Assembly (NCBI GenBank): GCA_023247255.1
Contig: JAHFGV010000010.1
Coordinates: forward strand, 2,830 to 66,829
DNA from: Candidatus Omnitrophota bacterium
GTDB taxonomy: Bacteria; Omnitrophota; Gorgyraeia; Aquiviventales; Aquiviventaceae
Length of the DNA: 64,000 nt
Direction of reading: 5' to 3'
In this document: positions 8,933-20,732 of the stretch, one piece after another
Position numbering within the stretch: position 1 is the first letter of the stretch
How the letters are laid out: each line of letters starts with the position of its first letter
Made by a program: the position numbers and the translations under genes
The notes under the pieces: generated by a model
What the model was told of the DNA's origin: nothing
Database searches by the model: none
Seen by the model: the letters and a program-made list of their open reading frames with translations, nothing else

Positions 8933-9586
8933 ATGTTTTTCTTCGCAGACATTTCATCGTTTCTCTGGCAATGTTTCTTGCATTACCGTTGGATTCTTTC
9001 CATCATTATCCTGGAGAGCATCGCAATGATCGATTTTTTCTCTCCAGGATTCAGCGAAAGATTACTTCCAAAACGCAAGAGAAGAAAATGGATTCGCGTG
9101 GTACTGCTCGTCGGGCTTCCTATTTCAACCTATTGGGCCTACCATGATGCTAAAAATGAGACACGTGCCCTTCAAAAGAGATTTGACCAATACAAACAAG
9201 AACATACGATTTCCATAGAAGACCTCAAGAAACACATTTTTCTCACTGAACGGTATGGGAGAGAATGGCAACGCACAAATGATGCGCAAATTGTTTTTTT
9301 AAGGAAAGAGGGGCAACCGGATGTCTTATGGAAGTCCTATAATCCAAATCTTCCTGAAGACCCAACGCAGTGGCCGCGACTGACTCCATTTTTGGTGCAT
9401 CAGATCTTTGGTTTTATTACCCCTGACGTGGCTATTTATTTGAAAATTCCAAAGGAGATTACCGTAAAAATTCTGCAAGGACACATTGAGCCGCCCCCTG
9501 ATTACATGTGGACATATGGTGCGAGCGATAGCAAGTGGAACCACTATTACACAAAGATACCGGCTGGTGCGACAGAAAAAAAATAG
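8933..9586 (+). CDS. Hypothetical protein (low-GC passenger gene inside the IS1595-family element), one predicted TM segment
   Basis: 217-aa ORF in an AT-rich segment. Hydrophobic stretch IRVVLLVGLPISTYWAY. No recognisable domain. Confidence 0.45.
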   Translation: MFFFADISSFLWQCFLHYRWILSIIILESIAMIDFFSPGFSERLLPKRKRRKWIRVVLLVGLPISTYWAYHDAKNETRALQKRFDQYKQEHTISIEDLKKHIFLTERYGREWQRTNDAQIVFLRKEGQPDVLWKSYNPNLPEDPTQWPRLTPFLVHQIFGFITPDVAIYLKIPKEITVKILQGHIEPPPDYMWTYGASDSKWNHYYTKIPAGATEKK

Positions 9587-9741
9587 GCAGTGGTGTGATC
9601 CAATCGTTAGCGTTGAAGTTTCCCCGTCCTGCTACTTATCCGATAGAGTATATTCTCTCTTTCCCAATTATGGGATTTGGAGATATTGCGGGGACGTTTT
9701 ACATTGAATCAAAATGAGAAAAAAGGACTTTGAACGTCTGA

Positions 9742-10599
9742 TTAAACAGGCCGCACAGCCTGTGCGAGCATCGGGAAGAACAGCGACGACAACGCGTGCC
9801 GCTTCGAGTAGCGGTAAGCGAACTCGTTCACGTAGTGCTGCAAATACTTCGGAGAGACGGCGTGATACGTCCCGCTGAGGCTCCGCTTGAGTTGACTCCA
9901 AAAGCCCTCAATGGTGTTCGTATGCACCATGCCACGTACATATGTTCCCGACGAGTGGTTCACCGTACGGTGCGGGTAGCCCTTACGTGTTTTGCGATAG
10001 GTCTTGAATTCATCCGTCATCAAGGCTGTGCCTGGCTTAATATGCTGCTCGATAAAGGGACGCACGGTCTCCGCCGACAGGTTGCCAACAACACTCGCCG
10101 CAATACGTCCCTGCCGCTGGACAGCGCCCAACACGATGCTTTTCCCTGTGGCTCCGCGTCCTCGCTTGCCACGCGCCACACCGCCCACATAGGTATCATC
10201 CATTTCCACCGTCTTGGACAATGGATAGTTGGACTGTTTGAACAGCAAACGAATCTGTTTTGCCATCCGCCACGCCGTTTTATAGGTCACGCCAAGTTGT
10301 CGCTGAAGCTCCTTCGCCGACACGCCATTCTTCGAGTTGGCGAACAAGTAAATGGCATAGAACCAACTCTTGAGCGGCGTTTCCGATTTATGAAAGATTG
10401 TATCGGCCAACGGGTGCAGTTGGTAGCCGCACGATTGACACGCATAGCATTTGCGGTCGGTGACGCGATGAAACTTCGTGCGCGTGTGGCATGAAGGACA
10501 CCTGCTCACTTGTCCATACCGATGCTTGAAAATAGTTTCGAGGCACACATCATCCGTTGCGTACTGCTCGTTAAATTGTTTAATCGTGAACTTTTCCAT
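9742..10599 (-). CDS. IS1595-family (ISXO2-like) DDE transposase
   Basis: N-terminal zinc-ribbon (CPSCHTRTKFHRV...CYACQSCGYQ) followed by TIFHKSETPLKSWFYAIYLFANSKNGVSAKELQRQLGVTYKTAWRMAKQIR, characteristic of IS1595 transposases. Confidence 0.85.
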   Translation of the reverse strand: MEKFTIKQFNEQYATDDVCLETIFKHRYGQVSRCPSCHTRTKFHRVTDRKCYACQSCGYQLHPLADTIFHKSETPLKSWFYAIYLFANSKNGVSAKELQRQLGVTYKTAWRMAKQIRLLFKQSNYPLSKTVEMDDTYVGGVARGKRGRGATGKSIVLGAVQRQGRIAASVVGNLSAETVRPFIEQHIKPGTALMTDEFKTYRKTRKGYPHRTVNHSSGTYVRGMVHTNTIEGFWSQLKRSLSGTYHAVSPKYLQHYVNEFAYRYSKRHALSSLFFPMLAQAVRPV

Positions 10600-10780
10600 C
10601 GGCCATCCTCCTGTTGTAATGGTACGAGAATAGCAGATGCGATACTTGTTGTAAAGGGATAATTACCAAAAGAAATTACCTGTCAACCGCTTTCCTGGTT
10701 ATAGTATTGTAAGTTCTGAATCTGAGGGAGTGTCTGCATCTTGCCTTGAGCCTGGCGAGCGCACTCAGAACTGATGCCCC

Positions 10781-11455
10781 ATGGATATAGAAGGAATTAC
10801 TCAAACCCTCCTGCAACACATACTCACTCACGGGCAGTGGAGTGTGTTCGTTGGGGTGTTGATTGAGTCCATCATCATTCCTATTCCTTCTCCCCTGATC
10901 ATCATGGGAGCCGGTGCCTTGTTGATTTCACCCGAGGCTTCTTGGCCCCAGGCGCTTTTCCAGATTCTCCAGAGAATCGTCCTGCCTGGATCGATTGCTT
11001 CCACCTTGGGAGCTTTTATCGGTTACGGGATTGGCTTCTGGGGTGGAAAACCCTTGGTCAAACGGTGGCAGGGCTATCTGGGATTTGGCTGGGATCAAGT
11101 GATGACTATGGAGCAACGTCTCAAGCGCCATCATCCGGGTCGGGTGCTTTTTCTTCTTCGAGCACTACCGGTGGTTCCCCTGTCGTTAATATCGATCGCC
11201 GCAGGTTTCCTTAGATGGCCGGCCCATTCATTCGCGGGATGGACATGGTTGGGATCCCTTGTCCGTTGCCTGTTGCTGGGATATCTGGGATGGGCCACCC
11301 GCGAGGCTTACGCGAATTTGGCGGAGCGATTGGACACGGTAGAATCGTTTTTTTTCTGCGCCATCGTCTTGGGAATAGTCGGCTTGATCCTCTGGCTTCG
11401 CGTCCGCATCCAGCAGGCTAAGAAAACCCTTGACAAATCAAGCGGTAAAATTTAA
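10781..11455 (+). CDS. DedA/SNARE-associated (TVP38/TMEM64) family membrane protein
   Basis: VFVGVLIESIIIPIPSPLIIMGAGALL motif and multi-TM profile. Confidence 0.75.
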   Translation: MDIEGITQTLLQHILTHGQWSVFVGVLIESIIIPIPSPLIIMGAGALLISPEASWPQALFQILQRIVLPGSIASTLGAFIGYGIGFWGGKPLVKRWQGYLGFGWDQVMTMEQRLKRHHPGRVLFLLRALPVVPLSLISIAAGFLRWPAHSFAGWTWLGSLVRCLLLGYLGWATREAYANLAERLDTVESFFFCAIVLGIVGLILWLRVRIQQAKKTLDKSSGKI

Positions 11456-11519: not shown

Positions 11520-11996
11520 ATGAAACGTACCCTACGATTACAGGCAGTGTTTCTCGCCACTCTCACAATAAGTACCAGCTTCTGGCTGAGCCGCTCTGTT
11601 TACGCTCAAGAAAATCAGGGTTCCGATTCAGAGCCCCAGACGGAGGAATCCCAGCCGTGGCTTGAGCCCATTCCCCTTCCCACAGACCCTGAGCTTGAGG
11701 CGCAGATCCACGAGGTGCAAGACGCCTTGAGCGCCATTCACACCCAGATGGTCCGACGCAAAGAGCTGTTGCAAACCACTCAGGATGCGACGAAAAAGTC
11801 CACCCTTTATGATGAATTGGAAGTCCTTCGAAAAGAGCGTGAGGACCTCGAAGCGCTCTTGCACGATCTGGTGGATGAGGCCCGGCTGAGTGAGCGCACT
11901 GCGATTGACGAAGCGCTTGCAAAAGTACGCTGGCTTGAGCGACGTCAGGAGGCGTTGGAGAAAAAAGATGAGCTCATCCGTGACCGCCAAGAGTAG
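11520..11996 (+). CDS. Secreted coiled-coil protein (signal peptide)
   Basis: N-terminal signal MKRTLRLQAVFLATLTISTSFWLSRSVYA. Glu/Leu-rich heptad-like remainder. Confidence 0.5.
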   Translation: MKRTLRLQAVFLATLTISTSFWLSRSVYAQENQGSDSEPQTEESQPWLEPIPLPTDPELEAQIHEVQDALSAIHTQMVRRKELLQTTQDATKKSTLYDELEVLRKEREDLEALLHDLVDEARLSERTAIDEALAKVRWLERRQEALEKKDELIRDRQE

Positions 11997-13071
11997 ACGG
12001 CTTCGACTTTCCGGTCGCGTGCTCATCAGTGTCGTGTTTCTCGGTTGTCCTGTGGTTTTTGCTCAGCAGGACCCGGATGAGGAATCCGTCAAGAAACGTC
12101 CAGAATTGCCCCCTTTAACCGCGCAAGTGTCTCCGGAAGAAGCCCTGGCAGCCATCAAACGCAGGGCCCAGAAAATCCTTCAGGCTCGACGCGAAGCCCG
12201 TCGATTTAAATTCTCAGGAGAAGCCTCGGAGGCAGTGGCCTATGAAACGAATCCTTCCAATGGGTCTTCCCACAAAGGGGACACTTCCTTTGAGCAGAGC
12301 GCTTATTTAACCTTGTCGAAGAAACTCACCCCCACCCTCGATTGGCAGGCTAATTACTCCGGATCCTATCTCAAATACCTCGACTATGGGGATGGGGATT
12401 ATACGGATCACACCCTCACGCCGCTCAGATTCCGCTGGCAGCCGGGAAAGATGTGGCGCGTGGAATCCTGGATCGATGTGGAGTACAACTACTATCCCTC
12501 AGGAAAGGATTCTACCTATCGAAACCTCAAGTTAACCAAGCGGGTGCGCCAGAATCTGTTTAAATCCTGGTATCACCAGATTCAATATGAATGGTTCACA
12601 CGGGACTACGCGACGAAGAATGCGCGCGATGGAGCGGGTGCGGAAACACTGAGCGATCGTGTGGATACAAGACACAGGTTGCGATACAAAGTGGGAACCA
12701 CCGTTAAAAAGGCGCTTCTGTCCGTTGAAAACGAGTATTACTCGAACGATTCCAATGACGCCCGTAACGATTTCTATGACTACGCGGTGTGGAAGATCAA
12801 CAATTCCCTCAGCGGAAGTGTGACTAAGAAACTTTATTTAAGCGGAAGCTTTTCCTTTGAGCGAAAGAATTACAAGGAAAGACCCGTTACAGGCCTTGTG
12901 GCCCCAGCCCGGTATGACGACAAGTACACCTTGAGCAGCTCAGCTAGTTATGACATCAGCAAAACTTGGAAGCTCGCCTACGCCTTCACCTTCGATCACC
13001 TCGCCTCTAACGAACCCACCGGGGAATTCGACAACGCAAAGCACGCACTGACCGTGACTGCAAGATTCTGA
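11968..13071 (+). CDS. Putative outer-membrane beta-barrel protein
   Basis: Signal peptide (VLISVVFLGCPVVFAQQ), alternating amphipathic beta-strand pattern, Tyr-rich, C-terminal ...LTVTARF with terminal Phe. The start was chosen at ATG 11968, which overlaps the upstream gene end. Confidence 0.55.
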   Translation: MSSSVTAKSRRLRLSGRVLISVVFLGCPVVFAQQDPDEESVKKRPELPPLTAQVSPEEALAAIKRRAQKILQARREARRFKFSGEASEAVAYETNPSNGSSHKGDTSFEQSAYLTLSKKLTPTLDWQANYSGSYLKYLDYGDGDYTDHTLTPLRFRWQPGKMWRVESWIDVEYNYYPSGKDSTYRNLKLTKRVRQNLFKSWYHQIQYEWFTRDYATKNARDGAGAETLSDRVDTRHRLRYKVGTTVKKALLSVENEYYSNDSNDARNDFYDYAVWKINNSLSGSVTKKLYLSGSFSFERKNYKERPVTGLVAPARYDDKYTLSSSASYDISKTWKLAYAFTFDHLASNEPTGEFDNAKHALTVTARF

Positions 13072-13096
13072 ACTGATAAATTTCGATTCGCGGAAT

Positions 13097-14359
13097 TTAC
13101 GGGATATACACCCCTCCGGGAGCTGTGTCTGCTGGACTCGTGGCTGTGTGGTCATGCCGCGTTCCATCACTGTGCACGTGGATCGTGTGCGTATGCTCCT
13201 CAGGCGTGAAGTCATTGTTGTGATCCGCTAAGTGGATCGCTGTTTCATAGCGCTCGACGATTTGCTGCTGTTGGTTATCGTAGTTCTGATTCTCCACAGT
13301 AGCAGGGGGCTGATACTGCTCGGCCATTTCCCGGTACTGCTCCAGTAATTCGGGACTGACATTCTGGCCTTCAGCGGCTTCCCATTGAGCGAAGGCTTCC
13401 ATTGGGCTCTGGAACTCGTATTCCATAGGTCCTGAGCCGAATCCTTCCATGGGGCCTGGTCCACCAAACCCTTCCATAGGTCCTGAGCCGTAGCCCTCAA
13501 AAGTCATTCCTTGAGGAGGGCCTCCATCTCCCTGAGCATTGGGGCCAAAGACTTCGTAGCCGGGGTGTGAGGCCATAAATTCCTGAGAATTTGCCATATA
13601 GTCTTTGGCCATCTGGAGCTGCTCCGGAGTCATCTGACCCGATGAGACCATCTGCTCCATCTGATCGAGGCTGGGCATTCCTCCGGGTCCTGCTCCTGGG
13701 TGGCCTAACTCCCCACCCGGCCCAGGACCTCCCATAACCCCTCCGGGACCCATCATCTCCATTTCGCCGCCGGACCATCGGGCGAATTCAAACCGGGCGC
13801 GCTCGACATACTCGGCTGGGGCTCCGCGAGCGACCATATCCGACTCCCACTCGTGAAACATGCCTTCGGCATGAGCGACCATTTCGGCAGAGGGAACATA
13901 CCGCTCCCCACTTTCAAAGGCGAGCATGCACCGTTCTCCCTCGCGAATGGACAGTTCCATCTCACGGGCGGCCTGTGGATCTGTAGCACGCAGGTTTTCC
14001 AACTGCTCCCGCATCTGGCCTTGGACACGGTTAAACTCTTCACGGGCGGCCTCGCGTACCTCCGTTGGAATCACCGTTGATAGATCCACCCCTTCGCGTT
14101 GGAGACTAGCGACTTCTTGCGTCACTGCCGCACGCTCGCGAGGATCAAGCACCGTAGCCTCGGCTACGTTACGACACAACTGAGCTAACTCCGGATCATT
14201 CGCCACCTCAGGATCCGCGGCAATCAACGCTTCGACAGCGGCGTAAAGAGCCGGATCCACCGTCTCCAACTGCGCCCAGGCTACCGGAGACATTTGGAAG
14301 GACAATGCGACTGCTAAAAGTACCCTCTGTCCCAATCGAATCTTTTTGCTGCACATCAT
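13097..14359 (-). CDS. Secreted low-complexity protein with Gly/Pro/Met repeats (GPMEGFG) and His-rich C-terminus; paralogue of 14433-15449
   Basis: Signal peptide ending VAWAQ. Shares the block DP(E/Q)xAREME with the upstream paralogue. MxxM-rich and His-rich (HTHTIHVHSDGTRHDH). Confidence 0.6.
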   Translation of the reverse strand: MMCSKKIRLGQRVLLAVALSFQMSPVAWAQLETVDPALYAAVEALIAADPEVANDPELAQLCRNVAEATVLDPRERAAVTQEVASLQREGVDLSTVIPTEVREAAREEFNRVQGQMREQLENLRATDPQAAREMELSIREGERCMLAFESGERYVPSAEMVAHAEGMFHEWESDMVARGAPAEYVERARFEFARWSGGEMEMMGPGGVMGGPGPGGELGHPGAGPGGMPSLDQMEQMVSSGQMTPEQLQMAKDYMANSQEFMASHPGYEVFGPNAQGDGGPPQGMTFEGYGSGPMEGFGGPGPMEGFGSGPMEYEFQSPMEAFAQWEAAEGQNVSPELLEQYREMAEQYQPPATVENQNYDNQQQQIVERYETAIHLADHNNDFTPEEHTHTIHVHSDGTRHDHTATSPADTAPGGVYIP

Positions 14360-14432
14360 CTTCGCGTGACCTCCTTTTGAGTTCTCATTCTTTCGTTGTT
14401 CTCAACAGGCTCTACGATATTCCCCAGTCATC

Positions 14433-15449
14433 CTAGGGTTGTGGAGGGGCTTGATACTCCTGCTGGGGCAATTCCGCTTGAGAAGGAGGCTCCATGGGTC
14501 CAGGCATTTCATGTTCCGCTGGTTCATTTTGGGGAGCCTGGTACTCATGGGTCGGTGATTCAAATTCATGAGTCGATGATTCGTATTCATGCGTGGGAGC
14601 TTCCGCTTCAAAGGAGCGGTCCATGGATTCAAAGGCGCGTTCACGCTCAATGACCTCAGGCCCTGAGTGATATTCGTTCTCGCGGCCTTCGAAATACCGC
14701 TCGCTAGTACCCATCTCCCGATCAAAACCCTCATGCATCATCTCCGGACGATCCTCTGGGCTATCCCCTTCATGCCCGAAGAAACGCTCCATCTGTTCTC
14801 GGGCTTCCGGAGACATCTGTTCCCATGAGCGCTCACCACCTGGGTGAGATTCCATTCCTAGCCCTTCGCGAAAACCCTCACCATTCATCATTCGACCTTC
14901 AGCAGAACCCCACTCACGCCCTTCATTAGGCTCGATCCCATAGTCTCGAAGCACATCGAACACCTTCTCTCTGGCTTGATCCGGTGAGATCTGCCCTCCT
15001 TCAAACTGACGGCGGACATCTTCCATCCGAGGATCGGATTGAACCTGCATGAAGAGCCGGTCACGCTCGGAAAGATTCGTGTTATCGCCTCCCAACGGGG
15101 TAGAGCCCATAAACCCTTGCGAGCGAGGAACGTTGCTGCTACTCGAAACATCAGTGGGAGGTGCACCTAGAGACAAGCCTGTTTCCGGAGCCTCAAGACT
15201 CGGCGGGCTCAACTCGCCCGTATTCAATAATTCCAATTGAGCTTCCATTTCTCTGGCGAGCTCGGGGTCTGTCTGTCTTGTGTCTTCAATGGCTTGCAGA
15301 ATGTGCTCCCGTGTCGTCGGGGCTACCTCTGTCTGCGCGGCTTCCACCGTTCCTTCATCATCCGCGGCCCAGGCCAGCGGAGAAGTGACTAGCGTGATTG
15401 CCACTGCCAGTAGGGCAATGGACGCTGTCGCAGAGCTTGCGATTCTCAT
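14433..15449 (-). CDS. Secreted acidic Met/His/Glu-rich low-complexity protein; paralogue of 13097-14359
   Basis: Signal peptide ending LAWAADDEG. DPELAREMEAQLE block. Repeats THEYES/THEFES/THEYQ. Met-rich segments. Confidence 0.6.
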   Translation of the reverse strand: MRIASSATASIALLAVAITLVTSPLAWAADDEGTVEAAQTEVAPTTREHILQAIEDTRQTDPELAREMEAQLELLNTGELSPPSLEAPETGLSLGAPPTDVSSSSNVPRSQGFMGSTPLGGDNTNLSERDRLFMQVQSDPRMEDVRRQFEGGQISPDQAREKVFDVLRDYGIEPNEGREWGSAEGRMMNGEGFREGLGMESHPGGERSWEQMSPEAREQMERFFGHEGDSPEDRPEMMHEGFDREMGTSERYFEGRENEYHSGPEVIERERAFESMDRSFEAEAPTHEYESSTHEFESPTHEYQAPQNEPAEHEMPGPMEPPSQAELPQQEYQAPPQP

Positions 15450-15508
15450 GTTATCCTCCCTTCTAGGATCAACGGCCTGGCTCGGTATCGCTCAGACTAC
15501 TCGCTGCC

Positions 15509-17363
15509 TCACTCAGGGTTTGGCGCTTCGGATTCCGCTTCTGACCCAGAGGTCTCTTGTTCATGTGGACTGGACTCTTGTGAAGATTCATTTTCAGGAG
15601 CAACATTATCAGGCTCTTCCGATGACACTGATTCTGATGAAGGAAGTTCGCTGGGCTCCGCATCCACTTCTGGAGCAGTCGCTTCGGTCGCAGTTTCTAG
15701 CTCCATCTCCGTGTCCTGTTCAGCACTCGATTCAGGTTCTGACCCTGCCATTTCGGAACTCCCTTGAGACTCTCCTAAGACCGTCCCAGCGTCAGACCCT
15801 GATGTCTCCTGCATGCCTGCAGCGGCTCCGCCTGTATCTGCGTCCGATTCTCCGAAGAGGGAGAATGATTCTGGGCTGTTGCCGTAGTCGTAATCGTTTT
15901 TCAATATCTCACTGGCTTGCCCCTCAGCGGTTGCTTCGGAGATTTGACCGCTCTCAACCTGCAGACCGAGTTCGATGAGACGCGGGTCGGACTCTAACGC
16001 CGCTTCAACGGCACTACCCGTCACGTCCCAGCTGCTCGCATCCGCATCTTGGCGATTCCCTATCCCGTCGCCATCGATGTCCGCATCGGCGGTGTTGGGC
16101 GTGCCATCGCCATCGATGTCCGCATCCACAAGATTCAACTGCCCATCGCCGTCGACGTCAGGATCCACGGCATTCAGTCGCCCATCGCCATCCACATCAG
16201 CATCTTGGACGTTGGGCGTGCCATCGCCATCGATGTCCGTATCCTGGGTGTTGAGCTTCCCATCTCCATCCACATCCATGTCTTGAGAGTTCACTTGGCC
16301 GTCGCCATCGACATCGGCATCGACTGTATTGGCCTTGCCGTCGCCATCGATGTCCGCATCCTGGCCATTGAGCGTGCCATCCCCATCGACATCGGGATCG
16401 ACCGTATTGGTGGCGCCATCCCCATCGACATCGGTATCCATAGAGTTGAGTTGCCCATCCCCATCGACATCGGCATCTTGGGCGTTCGCGGTGCCATCCC
16501 CATCAATGTCCTGGTCTTTGGCGTTCATGACCCGATCCCCGTCTACATCTAGGTCCTGGGCGTTGGGCGTACTGTCCCCGTCGGCATCCAGGTCTTGAGC
16601 ATTGGGCGTCCCATCCCCATCCCCATCGGTATCGGCGGCGTTGAGGGTTCCATCGCCGTCGATATCCGGATCCTTGATATTCGGAATCCCATCGTGGTCG
16701 GTGTCCGCCGTAGCATCTCCTGCGGTGAGCGCTTCGCCCCCTGGCGCATTCTCCATCCCATCCCCATCGACATCGAGATCGGACGTATTAGGCGTGCCGT
16801 CCCCATCACTATCGGCATCGGTTCTATTAGCCTGCCCGTCTCCATCGATATCCGCATCTTGGGCATTCAAGGTCCCGTCGCCATCTACGTCCAGATCGAG
16901 TGCGTTCGCGGTACCATCTCCATCCACATCGGTATCGGCGGCGTTCAACTGGCCATCGCCATCGATGTCTTTATCATCGGTGTTTTGAATCCCGTCTCCA
17001 TCCACATCGGTATCGGCGGCGTTCAACTGGCCATCGCCATCGATGTCTTTATCATCGGTGTTTTGAATCCCGTCTCCATCCACGTCGGTATCGGAGACGT
17101 TCAACTGGCCATCCCCATCGACATCGGGGTCGGCTGTGTTCGGGATGCCATCATGGTCGATATCGAGTGCCGCGGCTGCTGCGGGCGATTGGGCTTCACT
17201 GCTTGGGCTAAGATCAAGCGCTGCCGGGACCGCTATCTGAGCCGCTTCAGCGGTCTGATCATCCGCGGCCCACACCGAAGGACCAGCAATGAGAAGGGAA
17301 CCCAGACTCGCTGCGATGAGAGTCACTGCTAACCACCGATCCATTAATCGTCTACGATACATG
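15509..17363 (-). CDS. Secreted calcium-binding protein built of thrombospondin type 3-like repeats (DxDxDGxxN) with an acidic Ser/Glu-rich C-terminal tail
   Basis: Over 25 tandem DVDGDGxxNxxD repeats. Signal peptide LIAASLGSLLIAGPSVWA. Start ATG at 17363 is preceded by GGAGGTGG. A perfect 78-bp tandem duplication lies at 16919-17074. Confidence 0.8.
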
Positions 17364-17380
17364 TTCCACCTCCGTAGAAC

Positions 17381-17414
17381 AAAAAAACCCTTGCCATTGA
17401 AAGCAAGGGTTCGC
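17381..17414 (-). terminator. Intrinsic terminator / expression-platform hairpin (AACCCTTGC-TTTCAATG-GCAAGGGTT followed by TTTTTTT) 20 nt upstream of the RBS of the TSP3-repeat gene
   Basis: Read on the minus strand: a GC-rich 9-bp stem followed by a 7-T run. It is preceded by a second hairpin GATGCGCC-GTAA-GGCGCATC (17416-17435). Confidence 0.7.
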
Positions 17415-17433
17415 TGATGCGCCTTACGGCGCA

Positions 17434-17540
17434 TCTATCCGGTAACTGGCTGCCATCCCTAGCTTCCCGCTAGGTTGAAGGCCCTATAGCTTTGCGACCC
17501 ATTCTTTCGAATGGTGTGCCTTTTTCAGATCGATTGAGTT
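17434..17540 (-). ncRNA. Cyclic-di-GMP-I (GEMM) riboswitch aptamer
   Basis: Minus-strand sequence GGCACACCATTCGAAAGAATGGGTCGCAAAGC...CAGTTACCGGATAG closely matches the Vibrio cholerae Vc2 GEMM-I core GGCAAACCAUUCGAAAGAGUGGGACGCAAAGC...GGUUACCGAUGG. This includes the GAAA tetraloop hairpin and the ACGCAAAGC junction. A candidate sigma70 promoter (TTGACA-N18-TATTTT) lies at ~17575-17605 on the minus strand. Confidence 0.75.
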
Positions 17541-17932
17541 GTCAAATGCAAGGACACGGCTTTTGATTAAAAATACCTGACGCCGCTCAAAAATGTCAAG
17601 ACTCCAATGTGAAGACTCCATTAAAAAATTTGTCGCAACCAATATAGAAATGTCATAGTCGTTGTTCTTGGATGGGGGGGGTGGGGGGAAGGGTGGATAA
17701 GTTGTGAACTTGTGCACAACGGCCGTTGGGCGCTTGGAGTCGTCGCGTTTTTGGCCTCTGGCAGGCTCCAGGATTGACGATCGTTACCGAGGGAGGCAAT
17801 CGAGGTATCCCCGTTGCGAGCGTGCGAGGCGGTTTGGCGTCGCAACAGGGCGAAGTAGAACGGATCCATTAGGGGTCAGGCATTCACTATGTTAATTATT
17901 GACTCAGCGTATCTGTTGGGTTAAGGTAAGCC

Positions 17933-18865
17933 ATGGCTCGAGCTCCAAGAATCAACCTGGCTGGCGGACTATTCCATGTGACTCAACGGGGGAATAATCG
18001 CCAGCCCATTTTCTTAGATGATAAAGATCGGCGCGCTTTTCTTGAGCGTGTGGCTCGGTTCCGAGGACCTTTTAAATGTTCTGTGCATGCCTACTGTTTG
18101 ATGGATAATCACGTACACCTGCTTTTGGAGACTCAGGAGGCCAATCTTTCTGCTTTTGCCCAGCGATTGTTTGCCTCCTACACATTATGGTTCAACCGCA
18201 AGCACGAGCAGGTGGGACACGTTTTCCAGGGGCGGTTTAAATCGATTCTTGTAGAGAAGGATGCGTATTTGCTCGAGTTGTCACGATACATTCATCTCAA
18301 TCCAGTTAAGGCAAAACTTGTAGTGAAGCCAGAGGAATATCGTTGGTCAAGCATGCGCAGTTACCTGGGGATGGAAGGTGTCGAGAGCTGGGTTACCACA
18401 CGAGACGTACTGGCATACTTTACGGGTAGACGCCAGGAATATTTGGCATTTGTCTATGGCAGGATGGGGGTAGAGGACCCAGGATTTATAACTCGGGGCG
18501 ATTGCTTAGGTTCTCACGCGTTCATTGAAGAAGTTCAGACACAGTTCAGAAATGGAGAACATCAGAGGACGCAGGCTCTCGATAGGAAAACGGAGGATGC
18601 GGCCAAGTTAGCAAAGGTGAGTCGATTGTTAGGCATGGATGAGACGACGATGAGGAAGAAGCATGCGAAGGGTAGGGAGTCCGCTCGGGCGCGAGCCATG
18701 CTAGGATATGTGCTGCGCAGGACAACATCGATGACGCATGCAGAGATTGGGCGAGTCTTGGGGGGAGTGTCTGCGGCTGGCGTTGCCTCGCAAGCAGAGA
18801 AGGTGGCGCGCTTGCCAAAGTTACGAGACAAGGCAGACAGAATAATTAAAATAACAAATGCCTGA
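17933..18865 (+). CDS. Y1 HUH (IS200-like, Transposase_17 family) transposase fused to a C-terminal DnaA-C-like HTH domain
   Basis: HUH motif HVHLLLE and catalytic-Tyr region RYIHLNPVKAKLV...YRWSSMRSY. C-terminal MLGYVLRRTTSMTHAEIGRVLGGVSAAGVASQAEKV resembles the DnaA domain IV HTH. Confidence 0.75.
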   Translation: MARAPRINLAGGLFHVTQRGNNRQPIFLDDKDRRAFLERVARFRGPFKCSVHAYCLMDNHVHLLLETQEANLSAFAQRLFASYTLWFNRKHEQVGHVFQGRFKSILVEKDAYLLELSRYIHLNPVKAKLVVKPEEYRWSSMRSYLGMEGVESWVTTRDVLAYFTGRRQEYLAFVYGRMGVEDPGFITRGDCLGSHAFIEEVQTQFRNGEHQRTQALDRKTEDAAKLAKVSRLLGMDETTMRKKHAKGRESARARAMLGYVLRRTTSMTHAEIGRVLGGVSAAGVASQAEKVARLPKLRDKADRIIKITNA

Positions 18866-19083: not shown

Positions 19084-19974
19084 GTGACTGGTCTCCAAAT
19101 TTTGGCTGCCAGATGGGTGAGGGGGAGCATGGGTGAGCGCTTAGTGTTGGATCTCGAGACGCAGCGGGAATTCAACGAGGTTGAGGGCCGAAAGCCTGAG
19201 CTGCTCGGAATCTCAGTCGTCGGGCTCTACAGCTACGAGACCGACCGCTACGACGCCTACTTAGAGGTGGACCTGGAAAAGCTTGCGCCACGGCTGCAAG
19301 CAGCCGATTTGATTATCGGTTTCAACATTCGGCGATTTGACCTGCCGGTGCTGCAGCCGTATCTTTCCTTTTCGGTTTCGACTTTACCGATTCTGGATAT
19401 TATCGAGGAGGCCGTCAAGAATCTGGGGCATCGCGTCAGCCTCGAAAGCCTTGCCCAGGCGACCCTGGGACGGGGAAAAACCGGCCACGGATTGGAAGCG
19501 CTGCGTTGGTTCAAGGAAGGACGGTTGGATCTTATCACGAAGTATTGCCTGGATGACGTTAAACTCACCAAGGAACTCTACGACTACGGAAAGCAAAACG
19601 GCAGGCTTTTTGCGACCAGCCGTTTCAACAATGATAAGCTCACCATCACCGTCTTCTGGCCCGATCGCAAGCGGGATCTGGCAACGATTGCAAAGATGCT
19701 TCAGGAATCGTTTGAGAAGAGGCTTCAGGTGAAAATCGAATATTTTTCCAACAGCGCGCTCAGAGAAGTTGCGGCCGCTTTTGTCTCGAAAGAAACTCCC
19801 ACGCGCGAGCGCTGCGTCGATATCTACGTCATCCGCGAGCCCTACTTCGAGGGCTACTGCCACTTCCGCAACGACGTCCGTCAATTTCGCATCGACCGCG
19901 TCCTCGACGTTAAACCCACCTGGCAGCGCTACACGATTCCCGCGGATTACATCCCCCAGGCGGCCGCCGAATAG
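19084..19974 (+). CDS. DEDD-type 3'-5' exonuclease (RNase H-like fold) fused to a C-terminal WYL-like ligand-binding domain
   Basis: Exo motifs LVLDLET (Exo I), GFNIRRFDLPVL (Exo II), YCLDDVKLTKELY (Exo III). The C-terminus CHFRNDVRQFRIDRVLDVKPTWQRYTIPADY fits the WYL R-x-FR-ldRI signature. Confidence 0.6.
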   Translation: MTGLQILAARWVRGSMGERLVLDLETQREFNEVEGRKPELLGISVVGLYSYETDRYDAYLEVDLEKLAPRLQAADLIIGFNIRRFDLPVLQPYLSFSVSTLPILDIIEEAVKNLGHRVSLESLAQATLGRGKTGHGLEALRWFKEGRLDLITKYCLDDVKLTKELYDYGKQNGRLFATSRFNNDKLTITVFWPDRKRDLATIAKMLQESFEKRLQVKIEYFSNSALREVAAAFVSKETPTRERCVDIYVIREPYFEGYCHFRNDVRQFRIDRVLDVKPTWQRYTIPADYIPQAAAE

Positions 19975-19979
19975 CTCGA

Positions 19980-20732
19980 ATGCAGGTGACGATTTTGGGT
20001 GCTGGGACAGCGATTCCAGCCGCACGCTTCAGCCCTGCGGGCATCTACGTCCAGGCTGGGGATGAACACCTCTTGCTGGATGCTGGGGCGGGCAGTCTCC
20101 AGCGTCTTCAACGCATGGGCGTCACCTTCTTGGATTTGGATCGACTCTTCCTGACGCACTTCCATCCGGATCATTGTCTGGATCTGGTTTCGATCCTGTT
20201 TGCGATGCGGCTGCCGCAGCCTGCGCGTCGCAAGCCGTTCTTCATCTATGGTCCACGTGGGCTCAAACGTCTGTATGAAGCACTTGATAGAGCATTCAAG
20301 GGAGTGCTGGCCCCGCGCACCTACCGCCTGGATCTTAAAGAAATTGGAACGACGCGGATCACAGCTTCCGGCTATGTCGTCACCACGCAGCCGATGAATC
20401 ATTCGGCGCTGTGCTACGGCTATCGGATCGAATCAGCCGGACGGGTGGTTGCCTATTCCGGAGACACAGACCTGTGCGCAGGGATTGTGAAACTGGGCAA
20501 GAACGCGGATCTGTTGATTCTCGAATGTTCGATGCCGGATGAACGTAAAGTTCCTGGGCATCTGACTCCGAGTGAGTGCGGGCAAATCGCTGCCGAGGCG
20601 AAATGCAAGCGTCTGGTTTTGACTCATTTCTATCCTCTGCTCAGAGGCTACGACATCCGAAGGCGCGTTCGACGCACCTTCCGAGGCCCTGTAATCCTAG
20701 CCTGTGATCGGACCTGCCTCGAGTTATCTTGA
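19980..20732 (+). CDS. MBL-fold metallo-hydrolase (RNase Z/BN-like short form)
   Basis: HxHxDH motif LTHFHPDHCLDL and further His/Asp ligands (SGDTD, HLTPSE, LTHFYP). Confidence 0.75.
   Translation: MQVTILGAGTAIPAARFSPAGIYVQAGDEHLLLDAGAGSLQRLQRMGVTFLDLDRLFLTHFHPDHCLDLVSILFAMRLPQPARRKPFFIYGPRGLKRLYEALDRAFKGVLAPRTYRLDLKEIGTTRITASGYVVTTQPMNHSALCYGYRIESAGRVVAYSGDTDLCAGIVKLGKNADLLILECSMPDERKVPGHLTPSECGQIAAEAKCKRLVLTHFYPLLRGYDIRRRVRRTFRGPVILACDRTCLELS

What the first reader, a model, noticed from the sequence alone, without database searches (positions are those of the whole stretch)
13097..17363. Operon of three secreted low-complexity proteins: TSP3 Ca-binding repeat protein plus two paralogous Met/His/Gly/Glu-rich proteins
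Three co-directional minus-strand genes with 60-75 nt gaps, all with Sec signal peptides and extreme composition. The first has over 25 DxDxDGxxN thrombospondin type-3 Ca-binding repeats with an acidic SE-rich tail. The other two share a DPxxAREME block and carry Met-rich (GPMEGFG repeats), His-rich (HTHTIHVH, THEYES/THEFES) and acidic segments suggestive of Cu/Ag/Zn or Ca binding. With the upstream GEMM riboswitch, this looks like a c-di-GMP-controlled extracellular matrix, adhesion or metal-sequestration module with no characterised equivalent.
Basis: partly seen in the sequence, partly recalled or inferred. Interest (0 to 1): 0.7.

Follow-up and report, generated by a model that had tools for sequence, protein, structure and literature searches.

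The report
Riboswitch-controlled acidic secreted protein operon
An uncultivated Omnitrophota bacterium places three very acidic, exported, probably calcium/metal-binding proteins of unknown families under a c-di-GMP-sensing RNA switch; two of them form a module conserved across the phylum, next to an outer-membrane channel gene.

Summary
Three co-directional minus-strand genes lie behind a c-di-GMP-I riboswitch and an intrinsic terminator: g1 15509-17362, g2 14433-15449 and g3 13097-14359.

All three have AxA-type signal peptides. The mature proteins have pI about 4. g1 carries 28 tandem 13-residue DxDGDGxxNxxDx units.

The interpretation needs revision.
- **Conserved unit.** It is riboswitch, g2, g3, found in Omnitrophota metagenome-assembled genomes only. 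It is always convergent with a 14-strand outer-membrane barrel gene and a periplasmic coiled-coil gene.
- **g1.** It occurs only in this strain. It looks like a g2 duplicate that acquired an expanding calcium-loop array.
- **g2 and g3.** They are not whole-length paralogues. They share short modules.
- **Known families.** Neither g2 nor g3 matches any Pfam or NCBIfam family, PDB sequence or known fold. The g3 N-domain profile finds only 24 clusters among 1.84 billion proteins.
- **Aptamer.** Rfam labels it the GGC variant, but its binding-site positions are canonical.
- **Direction of control.** The aptamer P2 hairpin is complementary to the 5' half of the terminator, with some covariation. 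This predicts an OFF switch, so c-di-GMP would repress the operon.

What the proteins do remains inferred. I favour cation-binding cell-envelope or surface proteins.

The parts
17570..17599 (-). Sigma-70-like promoter candidate (TTGACA, 18-nt spacer, TATTTT), about 40 nt upstream of the aptamer
   Evidence: This is a consensus match only (10 of 12 positions) and has not been validated.
17437..17529 (-). c-di-GMP-I class riboswitch aptamer with canonical binding-site nucleotides. Rfam labels it RF03167 'GGC variant'.
   Evidence: 60 bits against a gathering score of 59, E = 1e-11 to 1e-13. Homologous leaders score 39-77 bits on RF01051. The window reads CGCAAAG where the GGC model reads CGCGAAG.
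17494..17514 (-). Aptamer P2 hairpin (CCAUUCGAAAGAAUGGGUCGC). Proposed to act also as the upstream strand of an antiterminator.
   Evidence: It pairs with 17393-17414 in the nascent-transcript minimum-energy fold (17 bp). Matched partners beat mismatched partners with permutation p = 0.004-0.01.
17416..17435 (-). Spacer hairpin (GAUGCGCC-GUAA-GGCGCAUC) between aptamer and terminator
   Evidence: Its structure is conserved through compensatory changes in related leaders, while its sequence is not.
17378..17414 (-). Intrinsic terminator (11-bp stem plus U7), preceded by GCGA, which completes the complement of the aptamer's GGGUCGC
   Evidence: stem 17412-17385. It is conserved in all 14 aligned leaders.
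15509..17362 (-). g1: 617-aa exported protein. Order of parts: g2-like signal peptide and AADxxAEAAQ, 28 calcium-loop repeats, g2-like SDPR...GQIS module, S/E-rich acidic tail. Seen in this strain only.
16043..17164 (-). Array of 28 units of 13 residues, DxDGDGxxNxxDx (39-nt period), with a recent 78-nt duplication at 16917-17121
   Evidence: Pfam TSP_3 scores only 14.4 bits against a gathering score of 25. Calmodulin matches weakly, E = 0.005.
14433..15449 (-). g2: 338-aa exported Glu-rich protein of an uncharacterised Omnitrophota family. Modules: TDPELAxEME helix, SDPRM...GQLSxxQARE, MSPEAREQMER, then PT(H/R)EYEAP-type heptad repeats.
   Evidence: 65 clusters. No Pfam, NCBIfam or PDB match.
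13097..14359 (-). g3: 420-aa exported protein of a second uncharacterised family. Parts: conserved helical N-domain (aa 31-200), variable Met/Gly/Pro/Gln linker, His/Asp-rich C-terminal mini-domain.
11968..13071 (+). Convergent neighbour: 367-aa outer-membrane protein with signal peptide, N-terminal helix and 14-strand beta-barrel. It sits next to g3 in every related locus that has downstream DNA.
11520..11996 (+). 158-aa exported coiled-coil protein. Its gene overlaps the start of the barrel gene by 29 nt and is conserved together with it.

Best explanation
This is an Omnitrophota-specific cell-envelope module whose output is set by c-di-GMP through a transcription-terminating class I riboswitch.

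Regulation.
- Transcription starts about 40 nt upstream of the aptamer.
- When c-di-GMP is bound, the aptamer stays folded. The downstream terminator then forms and the operon is silenced (an OFF switch).
- When c-di-GMP is low, the aptamer's P2 hairpin instead pairs with the 5' flank, 5' arm and loop of the terminator. RNA polymerase reads through into g1-g2-g3.

Products.
- All three proteins are exported by the Sec pathway. They are strongly acidic (pI about 4), part helical and part disordered.
- I propose that they bind divalent cations. The sites would be DxDxDG-type loops (28 in g1, and one or two in many g3 homologues) and a His/Asp cluster at the g3 C-terminus.
- I propose that they act in the periplasm or on the cell surface. 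They would work together with the neighbouring 14-strand outer-membrane barrel and its periplasmic coiled-coil partner, which would export or anchor them.
- g1 is a strain-specific g2 duplicate whose calcium-loop array is still expanding.

Status of each step.
- Shown: the gene and RNA anatomy, its conservation, and the absence of known homologues.
- Inferred: the OFF direction, cation binding, and the functional link to the barrel.
For: Riboswitch and platform.
- Rfam hit in the window.
- A c-di-GMP-I class hit lies upstream of the g2/g3 pair in 8 of 8 genome loci and 7 of 7 metagenome loci that have enough upstream DNA. It is also present in 2 of 3 distant loci.
- RNAalifold on 14 leaders recovers aptamer, spacer hairpin and terminator. 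Of 36 predicted pairs, 17 show compensatory changes.

OFF direction.
- The terminator does not overlap P1, so a bound aptamer leaves it free to form.
- The aptamer's GGGNCGC is complementary to GCGN'CCC at the terminator base. N pairs as U:A, G:C and A:U in different leaders. Matched partners average -11.5 kcal/mol against -10.0 for mismatched ones, permutation p = 0.004.
- Whole P2 against the terminator 5' half gives -16.5 against -15.0 kcal/mol, p = 0.01. A control using a P3 segment gives p = 0.42.
- In 10 of 14 leaders the nascent-transcript minimum-energy fold contains this pairing. In the window it spans 17 bp.

Proteins.
- Signal peptides, charge and repeats.
- The g3 and g2 families have 67 and 65 clusters, all from Omnitrophota metagenome-assembled genomes or unnamed metagenome contigs.
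- The g3 N-domain is predicted with confidence as a helical domain, pLDDT 80-95.
- Every g3 homologue inspected has 6-8 His in its last 60 residues. 18 of 67 have DxDxDG loops, spaced 13 residues apart where there are two. Another 18 of 67 have HVHxDGxxHDH.
- g1 is a g2 paralogue: hhalign probability 94.8%, E = 5e-8 over the N-terminus, and 38% identity over the SDPR module.

Barrel link.
- The barrel and the coiled-coil genes lie beside g3 in all 19 loci that have downstream DNA and in 3 distant loci, down to 47% barrel identity.
- In 8 of 8 other loci examined, a bidirectional terminator lies between g3 and the barrel gene.

Precedent. Class I c-di-GMP riboswitches in C. difficile are transcriptional OFF switches. 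[quoted passage not shown]
Against: - Cation binding rests on motifs and composition only. Pfam TSP_3 is below threshold for g1.
- The antiterminator is weak or absent in 4 of 14 leaders (L020, L020b, L018, L027). The sequences are related, so the permutation p-values are optimistic.
- In the full-length minimum-energy fold, aptamer and terminator coexist even without ligand. The switch would therefore have to be kinetic.
- g1 is absent from every other locus, so it cannot be essential to the module.
Confidence: 0.45

Rival explanations
1. One reading: a matrix or adhesion module induced by high c-di-GMP. The riboswitch would be an ON switch, as with Bc2 and the cap gene in Bacillus thuringiensis.
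For: Class I c-di-GMP riboswitches can be ON switches that control an adhesin through an antiterminator (PMC4933901). Acidic calcium-loop repeat proteins are typical adhesin or matrix components (general knowledge). In 4 of 14 leaders the proposed antiterminator is not seen in the minimum-energy fold.
Against: In all 14 leaders the terminator is separated from P1 by an independent hairpin, so a ligand-stabilised P1 cannot sequester it. The only conserved alternative pairing consumes the aptamer's own P2. That pairing is incompatible with the ligand-bound state.
Confidence: 0.2
2. Periplasmic metal buffering or a chaperone function for Cu, Ag, Zn or Ni, comparable to SilE/PcoE or to the LTxxQ proteins CpxP, Spy and ZraP. 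The barrel would act as a cation-selective porin.
Against: Neither window protein matches any metal-resistance family. A hit in 1 of 22 homologues is near chance. The Met-rich repeats lie in the non-conserved linker. Control is by c-di-GMP, with no metal sensor or efflux gene adjacent. No CpxP, Spy or ZraP structure appears in the PDB profile search.
Confidence: 0.2
3. g2 and g3 are riboswitch-controlled periplasmic proteins with no functional tie to the barrel and coiled-coil pair. The adjacency would be inherited synteny, held in place by a shared bidirectional terminator.
For: The genes are convergent and so not co-transcribed. A bidirectional terminator sits between them in 8 of 8 other loci examined. 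The barrel family is larger than the g3 family, 98 against 67 clusters.
Against: The adjacency persists in every locus examined, down to 47-54% barrel identity, while the flanking genes differ. In the distant loci the g3-like partner changes its N-domain yet remains next to the barrel.
Confidence: 0.25
4. The ORFs are low-complexity artefacts and not real genes.
For: The composition is extreme, internal repeats are present, and long antisense ORFs overlap g1.
Against: There are 65-67 homologous clusters with conserved non-repetitive domains and invariant residues. Signal peptides, Shine-Dalgarno sites and a dedicated riboswitch are all conserved. The g3 N-domain is predicted as a fold with confidence.
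Confidence: 0.02

Closest known systems
Class I (GEMM-I) c-di-GMP riboswitches that control surface or secreted proteins by transcription termination. Examples: the C. difficile class I OFF switches, including the one upstream of CD2797 (putative calcium-binding adhesion protein), and B. thuringiensis Bc2-cap.
   Same: The aptamer class and canonical binding-site nucleotides are the same. The expression platform is an intrinsic terminator. The regulated genes encode exported proteins, one of them rich in calcium loops. The predicted direction is OFF, as reported for C. difficile class I switches (PMC11477304).
   Different: The host is Omnitrophota, an uncultivated diderm phylum. The antiterminator uses the aptamer's P2 hairpin across an intervening spacer hairpin, not the P1 3' strand. 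The regulated proteins belong to two families with no known relatives. Ligand binding and direction of control have not been tested here.
Thrombospondin type 3 / DxDxDG calcium-binding repeats, including bacterial TSP3-repeat proteins such as Myxococcus MtsC (NF047638)
   Same: g1 repeats the motif DxDxDGxx(N/D)xxD with a 13-residue period. From memory, this is the length of the short TSP3 motif. MtsC matches weakly (45.7 bits) and calmodulin loops match at E = 0.005.
   Different: Scores are below the Pfam and NCBIfam cut-offs: TSP_3 14.4 against 25, MtsC 45.7 against 350. g1 has no cysteines and no MYXO-CTERM or OmpA-like anchor. The array is embedded in a g2-like frame.
Outer-membrane export barrels with an N-terminal helix (the TpsB proteins FhaC and CdiB; CymA; PgaA, BcsC and PelB) and Pfam BBP2_2 'putative beta-barrel porin 2'
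   Different: The model has 14 strands and no POTRA or TPR domains. Ordinary porins score almost as high. The window protein is below the BBP2_2 threshold, 14.4 against 23.7. No substrate is known.
SilE/PcoE and the CpxP/Spy/ZraP periplasmic helical metal-binding or stress proteins
   Same: These are exported, helical and partly disordered proteins with Met/His or LTxxQ-like motifs. This resemblance is at motif level and from memory.
   Different: Neither window protein shows a family match. Regulation is by c-di-GMP, not by a metal or envelope-stress sensor.

Membership tests
c-di-GMP-I riboswitch (Rfam RF01051, clan CL00126) | Covariance-model score at or above the curated gathering score | tested here: met
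   The window scores 60 bits on the clan member RF03167 (gathering score 59); its RF01051 score is hidden by clan competition. Homologous leaders score 39-77 bits on RF01051, whose gathering score is 35.
c-di-GMP-I riboswitch (Rfam RF01051, clan CL00126) | Canonical ligand-contacting nucleotides: G before the GC of P2, A after CGC, C before the P1 3' strand (G20, A47, C92 in Vc2 numbering, recalled from memory) | tested here: met
   The window reads AAGGCAC...GUCGCAAAG...GUUACCGG. This is the same as the RF01051 consensus at these positions and is conserved in the 13 well-aligned leaders of A3; L027's 5' end is misaligned.
c-di-GMP-I riboswitch (Rfam RF01051, clan CL00126) | Binds c-di-GMP and changes gene expression | not testable with these tools
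   This needs in-line probing or ITC, and transcription assays.
c-di-GMP-I-GGC variant (RF03167) | G in place of the intercalating A (model consensus CGCGAAG) | tested here: not met
   The window has CGCAAAG. The score is only 1 bit above the gathering score. The meaning of the name 'GGC' is recalled from memory; I did not find it in the papers searched.
Thrombospondin type 3 repeat (Pfam PF02412) | Pfam gathering score of 25 bits | tested here: not met
   14.4 bits, E = 0.031.
Thrombospondin type 3 repeat (Pfam PF02412) | Repeated DxDxDGxxDxxD calcium-binding motif | tested here: met
   28 units with a 13-residue period, 26 of them strict DxDxDGxxN.
Thrombospondin type 3 repeat (Pfam PF02412) | Disulfide-forming cysteines that flank the loops | tested here: not met
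   g1 contains no cysteine.
MtsC cell-cohesion protein (NCBIfam NF047638) | Equivalog cut-off of 350 bits | tested here: not met
   45.7 bits, matching repeat stretches only.
BBP2_2 putative beta-barrel porin 2 (PF10082), for the neighbouring barrel | Pfam gathering score of 23.7 bits | tested here: inconclusive
   The window protein scores 14.4 bits. 16 of 27 homologues match at E <= 0.01, and several database homologues carry a precomputed PF10082 hit.
Outer-membrane beta-barrel fold, for the neighbouring barrel | Signal peptide, closed antiparallel barrel, C-terminal aromatic residue | tested here: met
Heavy-metal resistance / LTxxQ periplasmic proteins (PF13801, PF07813) and SilE/PcoE | Profile match | tested here: not met
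   Window g2 and g3 give no hit at E <= 0.1. 1 of 22 g2 homologues hits PF13801 at E = 0.0055. No such chain appears in the PDB profile searches.

The most novel reading that the evidence does not exclude
The four conserved genes (g2 and g3, plus the coiled-coil and barrel genes) would form a previously undescribed Omnitrophota-specific surface apparatus. The barrel and its periplasmic coiled coil would export or anchor acidic, cation-bridged proteins. The cell would deploy them when c-di-GMP is low, for example to attach to a host or prey cell or to a mineral surface. The fast-evolving linkers and the strain-specific expansion of the g1 calcium-loop array would reflect adaptation of that contact surface.
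Probability: 0.15. Interest if true: 0.75.

Novelty: new variant of a known kind. Interest (0 to 1): 0.45.

Why it matters
Omnitrophota are widespread, uncultivated, very small bacteria, and their cell biology is almost unknown.

This locus gives a concrete, phylum-wide output of c-di-GMP signalling. One RNA switch controls two protein families with no known relatives. These genes always sit beside a dedicated outer-membrane channel gene.

It offers three things:
- a testable leader RNA in which the antiterminator is built from the aptamer's own P2 hairpin;
- two candidate new domain families for curation;
- a short list of envelope proteins to look for in metaproteomes or to express heterologously.

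If the link to the barrel is functional, it would define a new route for displaying proteins on a diderm surface. If not, this remains an ordinary case of a c-di-GMP riboswitch controlling exported proteins.

Tried and rejected
- **Family searches.** Pfam and NCBIfam scans of the window proteins and of 19 g3 and 22 g2 homologues gave only scattered hits at chance level.
- **PDB sequence searches.** Profiles of g3 and g2 found nothing better than E = 0.15.
- **Remote homology.** The g3 N-domain profile against 1.84 billion representatives returned only family members, plus one weak hit in a 2135-aa protein.
- **g2 and g3 as whole-length paralogues.** Rejected: the profile comparison aligns only the signal peptide.
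- **cGAMP or variant ligand specificity.** Rejected on sequence: the binding-site positions are canonical.
- **Magnetosome or biomineralisation acidic proteins.** Considered only from memory and not tested. No magnetosome genes appeared among the neighbours that were annotated.
- **c-di-GMP enzymes in the window.** A crude motif scan for GGDEF, EAL, HD-GYP and PilZ ORFs found none.
- **Exact-sequence look-ups of g1.** None is on record, for either start codon.
- **Literature.** Searches for the riboswitch variant, and for Omnitrophota together with riboswitch, found nothing about this locus.

Full report
**Observation**

The region holds three co-directional minus-strand ORFs.
- g1 is best started at ATG 17362. 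That start is preceded by GGAGGTGG. The longer ORF from 17434 would run through the riboswitch platform.
- The coordinates are g1 15509-17362 (617 aa), g2 14433-15449 (338 aa) and g3 13097-14359 (420 aa).
- The gaps are 59 and 73 nt. Each gene has its own Shine-Dalgarno site, and no minus-strand terminator lies between them.
- Each protein begins with a basic n-region, a hydrophobic core and a V/A-W-A cleavage motif. I read this directly from the sequence; no signal-peptide predictor was available.
- The mature proteins have pI 4.0-4.3 and net charges of about -154, -44 and -45.
- g1 carries 28 tandem 13-residue units, DxDGDGxxNxxDx, in blocks of 11 and 17. Of these, 26 fit DxDxDGxxN strictly.
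- The DNA period is 39 nt. A 78-nt unit is 96% identical over 2.6 copies, so the array expanded recently.

**Where it comes from and what is conserved**

g3 has 67 homologous 90% clusters and g2 has 65. Every homologue is unnamed or 'hypothetical'. Every named one comes from a Candidatus Omnitrophica/Omnitrophota metagenome-assembled genome (MAG), apart from one partial hit whose source labels it 'archaeon'.

I fetched 10 loci from species-representative genomes and 14 from metagenomes.
- Every locus with enough upstream DNA carries a c-di-GMP-I class riboswitch: 8 of 8 genome loci and 7 of 7 metagenome loci. In each, a g2-like gene and then a g3-like gene follow it directly.
- None of these loci has a TSP3-type gene. 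g1 occurs only on contigs identical to the window (L002, L003).
- Every locus with downstream DNA (19 of 19) has a convergent outer-membrane barrel gene at 62-74% identity (one at 53%). The barrel gene is preceded by an overlapping gene for an exported coiled-coil protein wherever the contig extends that far.
- The layout persists in three distant loci found through barrel homologues of 47-54% identity. Two of these also carry the riboswitch. In two of them the g3-like gene has a different N-domain, and in one of those (L030) the family's C-terminus is clearly kept.

The conserved unit is therefore riboswitch-g2-g3, facing the coiled-coil and barrel genes. g1 is a strain-specific addition.

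**The RNA**

Rfam places the aptamer at 17437-17529 on the minus strand: 60 bits on RF03167 'c-di-GMP-I-GGC', whose gathering score is 59.
- At the position where that model has G (CGCGAAG), the window has A (CGCAAAG). That is the RF01051 consensus.
- The G before the P2 GC pair and the C before the P1 3' strand are also canonical. They are conserved in the 13 well-aligned related leaders; L027's 5' end is misaligned.
- I therefore treat it as an ordinary c-di-GMP-I aptamer. Both the residue numbering and the meaning of 'GGC' are recalled from memory.

Downstream come a spacer hairpin (17416-17435), an 11-bp terminator with a U7 tract (17412-17385 and onward), the ribosome-binding site and the start codon. 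RNAalifold on 14 leaders recovers aptamer, spacer hairpin and terminator, and 17 of 36 pairs show compensatory changes.

**Direction of control**

- The terminator does not overlap P1, so a ligand-locked aptamer cannot prevent it from forming.
- The conserved alternative pairing joins the aptamer's P2 hairpin to the terminator's 5' flank, 5' arm and loop.
- The heptamer GGGNCGC faces GCGN'CCC, where GCG lies outside the terminator stem. N pairs as U:A, G:C or A:U in different leaders. Matched partners beat mismatched ones, -11.5 against -10.0 kcal/mol, permutation p = 0.004.
- With the whole P2 hairpin the figures are -16.5 against -15.0 kcal/mol, p = 0.01. A P3 control segment gives p = 0.42.
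- In several leaders the terminator loop also complements the P2 loop. An example is CUUUCGAAUG in L006 against CAUUCGAAAG.
- Truncated just before or three bases into the terminator's 3' arm, 10 of 14 leaders show this pairing in at least one of the two truncated minimum-energy folds. In the window it spans 17 bp.
- This is the anatomy of a kinetic OFF switch, in which c-di-GMP causes termination.
- The caveats are that 4 leaders do not show the pairing, that the sequences are related to one another, and that nothing here is experimental.

**The proteins**

*g3 family*
- The N-domain (aa 31-200) is conserved at 59-79% identity and has many invariant residues, including the loop G151-E-x-Y-x-P-S157.
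- A length-variable Met/Gly/Pro/Gln linker follows. The GPMEGFG repeats sit in it.
- The C-terminal stretch is rich in His and Asp, with 6-8 His in the last 60 residues of the homologues inspected. It comes in several flavours: HVHxDGxxHDHTATSPADTAP in 18 of 67, and one or two DxDxDG loops in another 18 of 67. Where there are two loops they lie 13 residues apart, which is the g1 period.
- AlphaFold2 gives a confident helical N-domain (pLDDT 80-95), disordered linkers and a weaker C-terminal beta-hairpin.
- A profile search of 1.84 billion representative proteins returns 24 clusters, 23 of them at E below 1e-10. The last is a weak hit (E = 5e-5) in a 2135-aa protein.

*g2 family*
- It has the signal peptide, then AADxxAEAAQ.
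- Three conserved helical modules follow: TDPELAxEME, SDPRM...GQLSxxQAREKVFEILRDYGIEP and MSPEAREQMER.
- It ends with PT(R/H)EYEAP-type heptad repeats.

*Relationships among the three*
- g2 and g3 are not whole-length paralogues. hhalign aligns only the signal peptide.
- They do exchange modules. g3 residues 275-350 match the interior of g2 homologues in other genomes at 41-47% identity, E = 1e-7 to 1e-9.
- g1 is the real g2 paralogue. Its N-terminus fits the g2 profile with probability 94.8%, E = 5e-8. Its residues 456-497 match the g2 SDPR module at 38% identity.
- g1's start context and its MDRW N-terminus resemble those of g2 in other genomes.
- The g1 repeats fall below the Pfam TSP_3 and NCBIfam MtsC cut-offs and contain no cysteine. 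They weakly match calmodulin loops. I class them as DxDxDG calcium loops of TSP3 type by motif, not by family membership.

**The neighbours**

- The barrel protein (ATG 11968, 367 aa) has a signal peptide and ends in TARF.
- Its model has pLDDT 83 and pTM 0.72, with an N-terminal helix and 14 strands.
- Pfam BBP2_2 matches weakly in 16 of 27 homologues.
- In 8 of 8 other loci examined, the gap between g3 and the barrel gene holds a strong bidirectional terminator. In the window the gap is only 25 nt and has none.

**Mechanism and rivals**

I commit to the following model. It is a c-di-GMP-repressed operon for exported, strongly acidic, cation-binding envelope proteins. These probably work with the barrel and coiled-coil pair, which would export or anchor them.

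My confidence in each element:
- riboswitch control: about 0.85;
- OFF direction: about 0.6;
- cation binding: about 0.5;
- partnership with the barrel: about 0.35.

The rivals are:
- an ON switch controlling a matrix adhesin;
- periplasmic metal buffering of the SilE or ZraP type;
- no functional tie between g2/g3 and the barrel;
- an artefact, which is effectively excluded.

**Comparison with what is known**

The closest known systems are class I c-di-GMP riboswitches in front of surface-protein genes.
- In B. thuringiensis, Bc2 is an ON switch for a collagen adhesin (PMC4933901).

The kind of system is therefore known. Four things are new here:
- the phylum;
- two protein families without relatives;
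- the constant pairing with an outer-membrane barrel gene;
- an antiterminator built from the aptamer's own P2 hairpin.

I found no paper on this locus.

**Verdict**

The finding is real and moderately interesting, at 0.45. It is a new variant of a known kind. The function of the proteins is still inferred.

Noticed in passing
window 13072-13096: Only 25 nt, with no hairpin, separate the convergent stop codons of g3 and the barrel gene. In 8 of 8 other loci examined the 80-116 nt gap holds a strong bidirectional terminator. This strain seems to have lost it, so the two operons may read into each other.
   Followed up: partly
window 17933-18865 (+): A REP-associated tyrosine transposase (NF047646, 82.5 bits) is fused to a DnaA_C-like helix-turn-helix. 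It is divergent from the riboswitch promoter. At least five related loci have a LexA-like gene upstream of the riboswitch instead (L005, L006, L009, L010; L029 differs). An IS1595-type transposase lies at about 9742-10662 (-). The conserved module thus sits between mobile elements in this genome.
   Followed up: no
L020 10933-11026 (-): A second c-di-GMP-I riboswitch, with the same terminator design, lies upstream of a different 556-aa exported protein (9181-10851, minus strand). This suggests a riboswitch regulon of secreted proteins in these bacteria.
   Followed up: partly
L007 and L013 (both from MAG JACPSR01): One MAG carries two separate g3 loci, so the module can be present in more than one copy per genome.
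   Followed up: no
L015 165-563 (-): A group I intron hit (RF00028, 82 bits) lies on a metagenome contig next to a riboswitch-g2-g3 locus.
   Followed up: no
window 19084-19974 (+) and 19980-20732 (+): The first is an RNase H-like / 3'-5' exonuclease domain protein with a WYL domain. The second is a metallo-beta-lactamase-fold protein with a sub-threshold match to the anti-Pycsar Apyc1 family, 21 bits against 50.
   Followed up: no
P0239 (2135 aa; not in the window): This is the only hit to the g3 N-domain profile from outside the g3 family. It is a giant protein with four weak matching stretches, E = 5e-5.
   Followed up: no
g3 homologues P0028, P0047, P0051 (linker region): Some family members replace the Met/Gly linker with repeats rich in Gly, Trp, Tyr, Thr and Asn (NYGINPATGGWEP...). 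The linker is a fast-evolving, interchangeable region.
   Followed up: no
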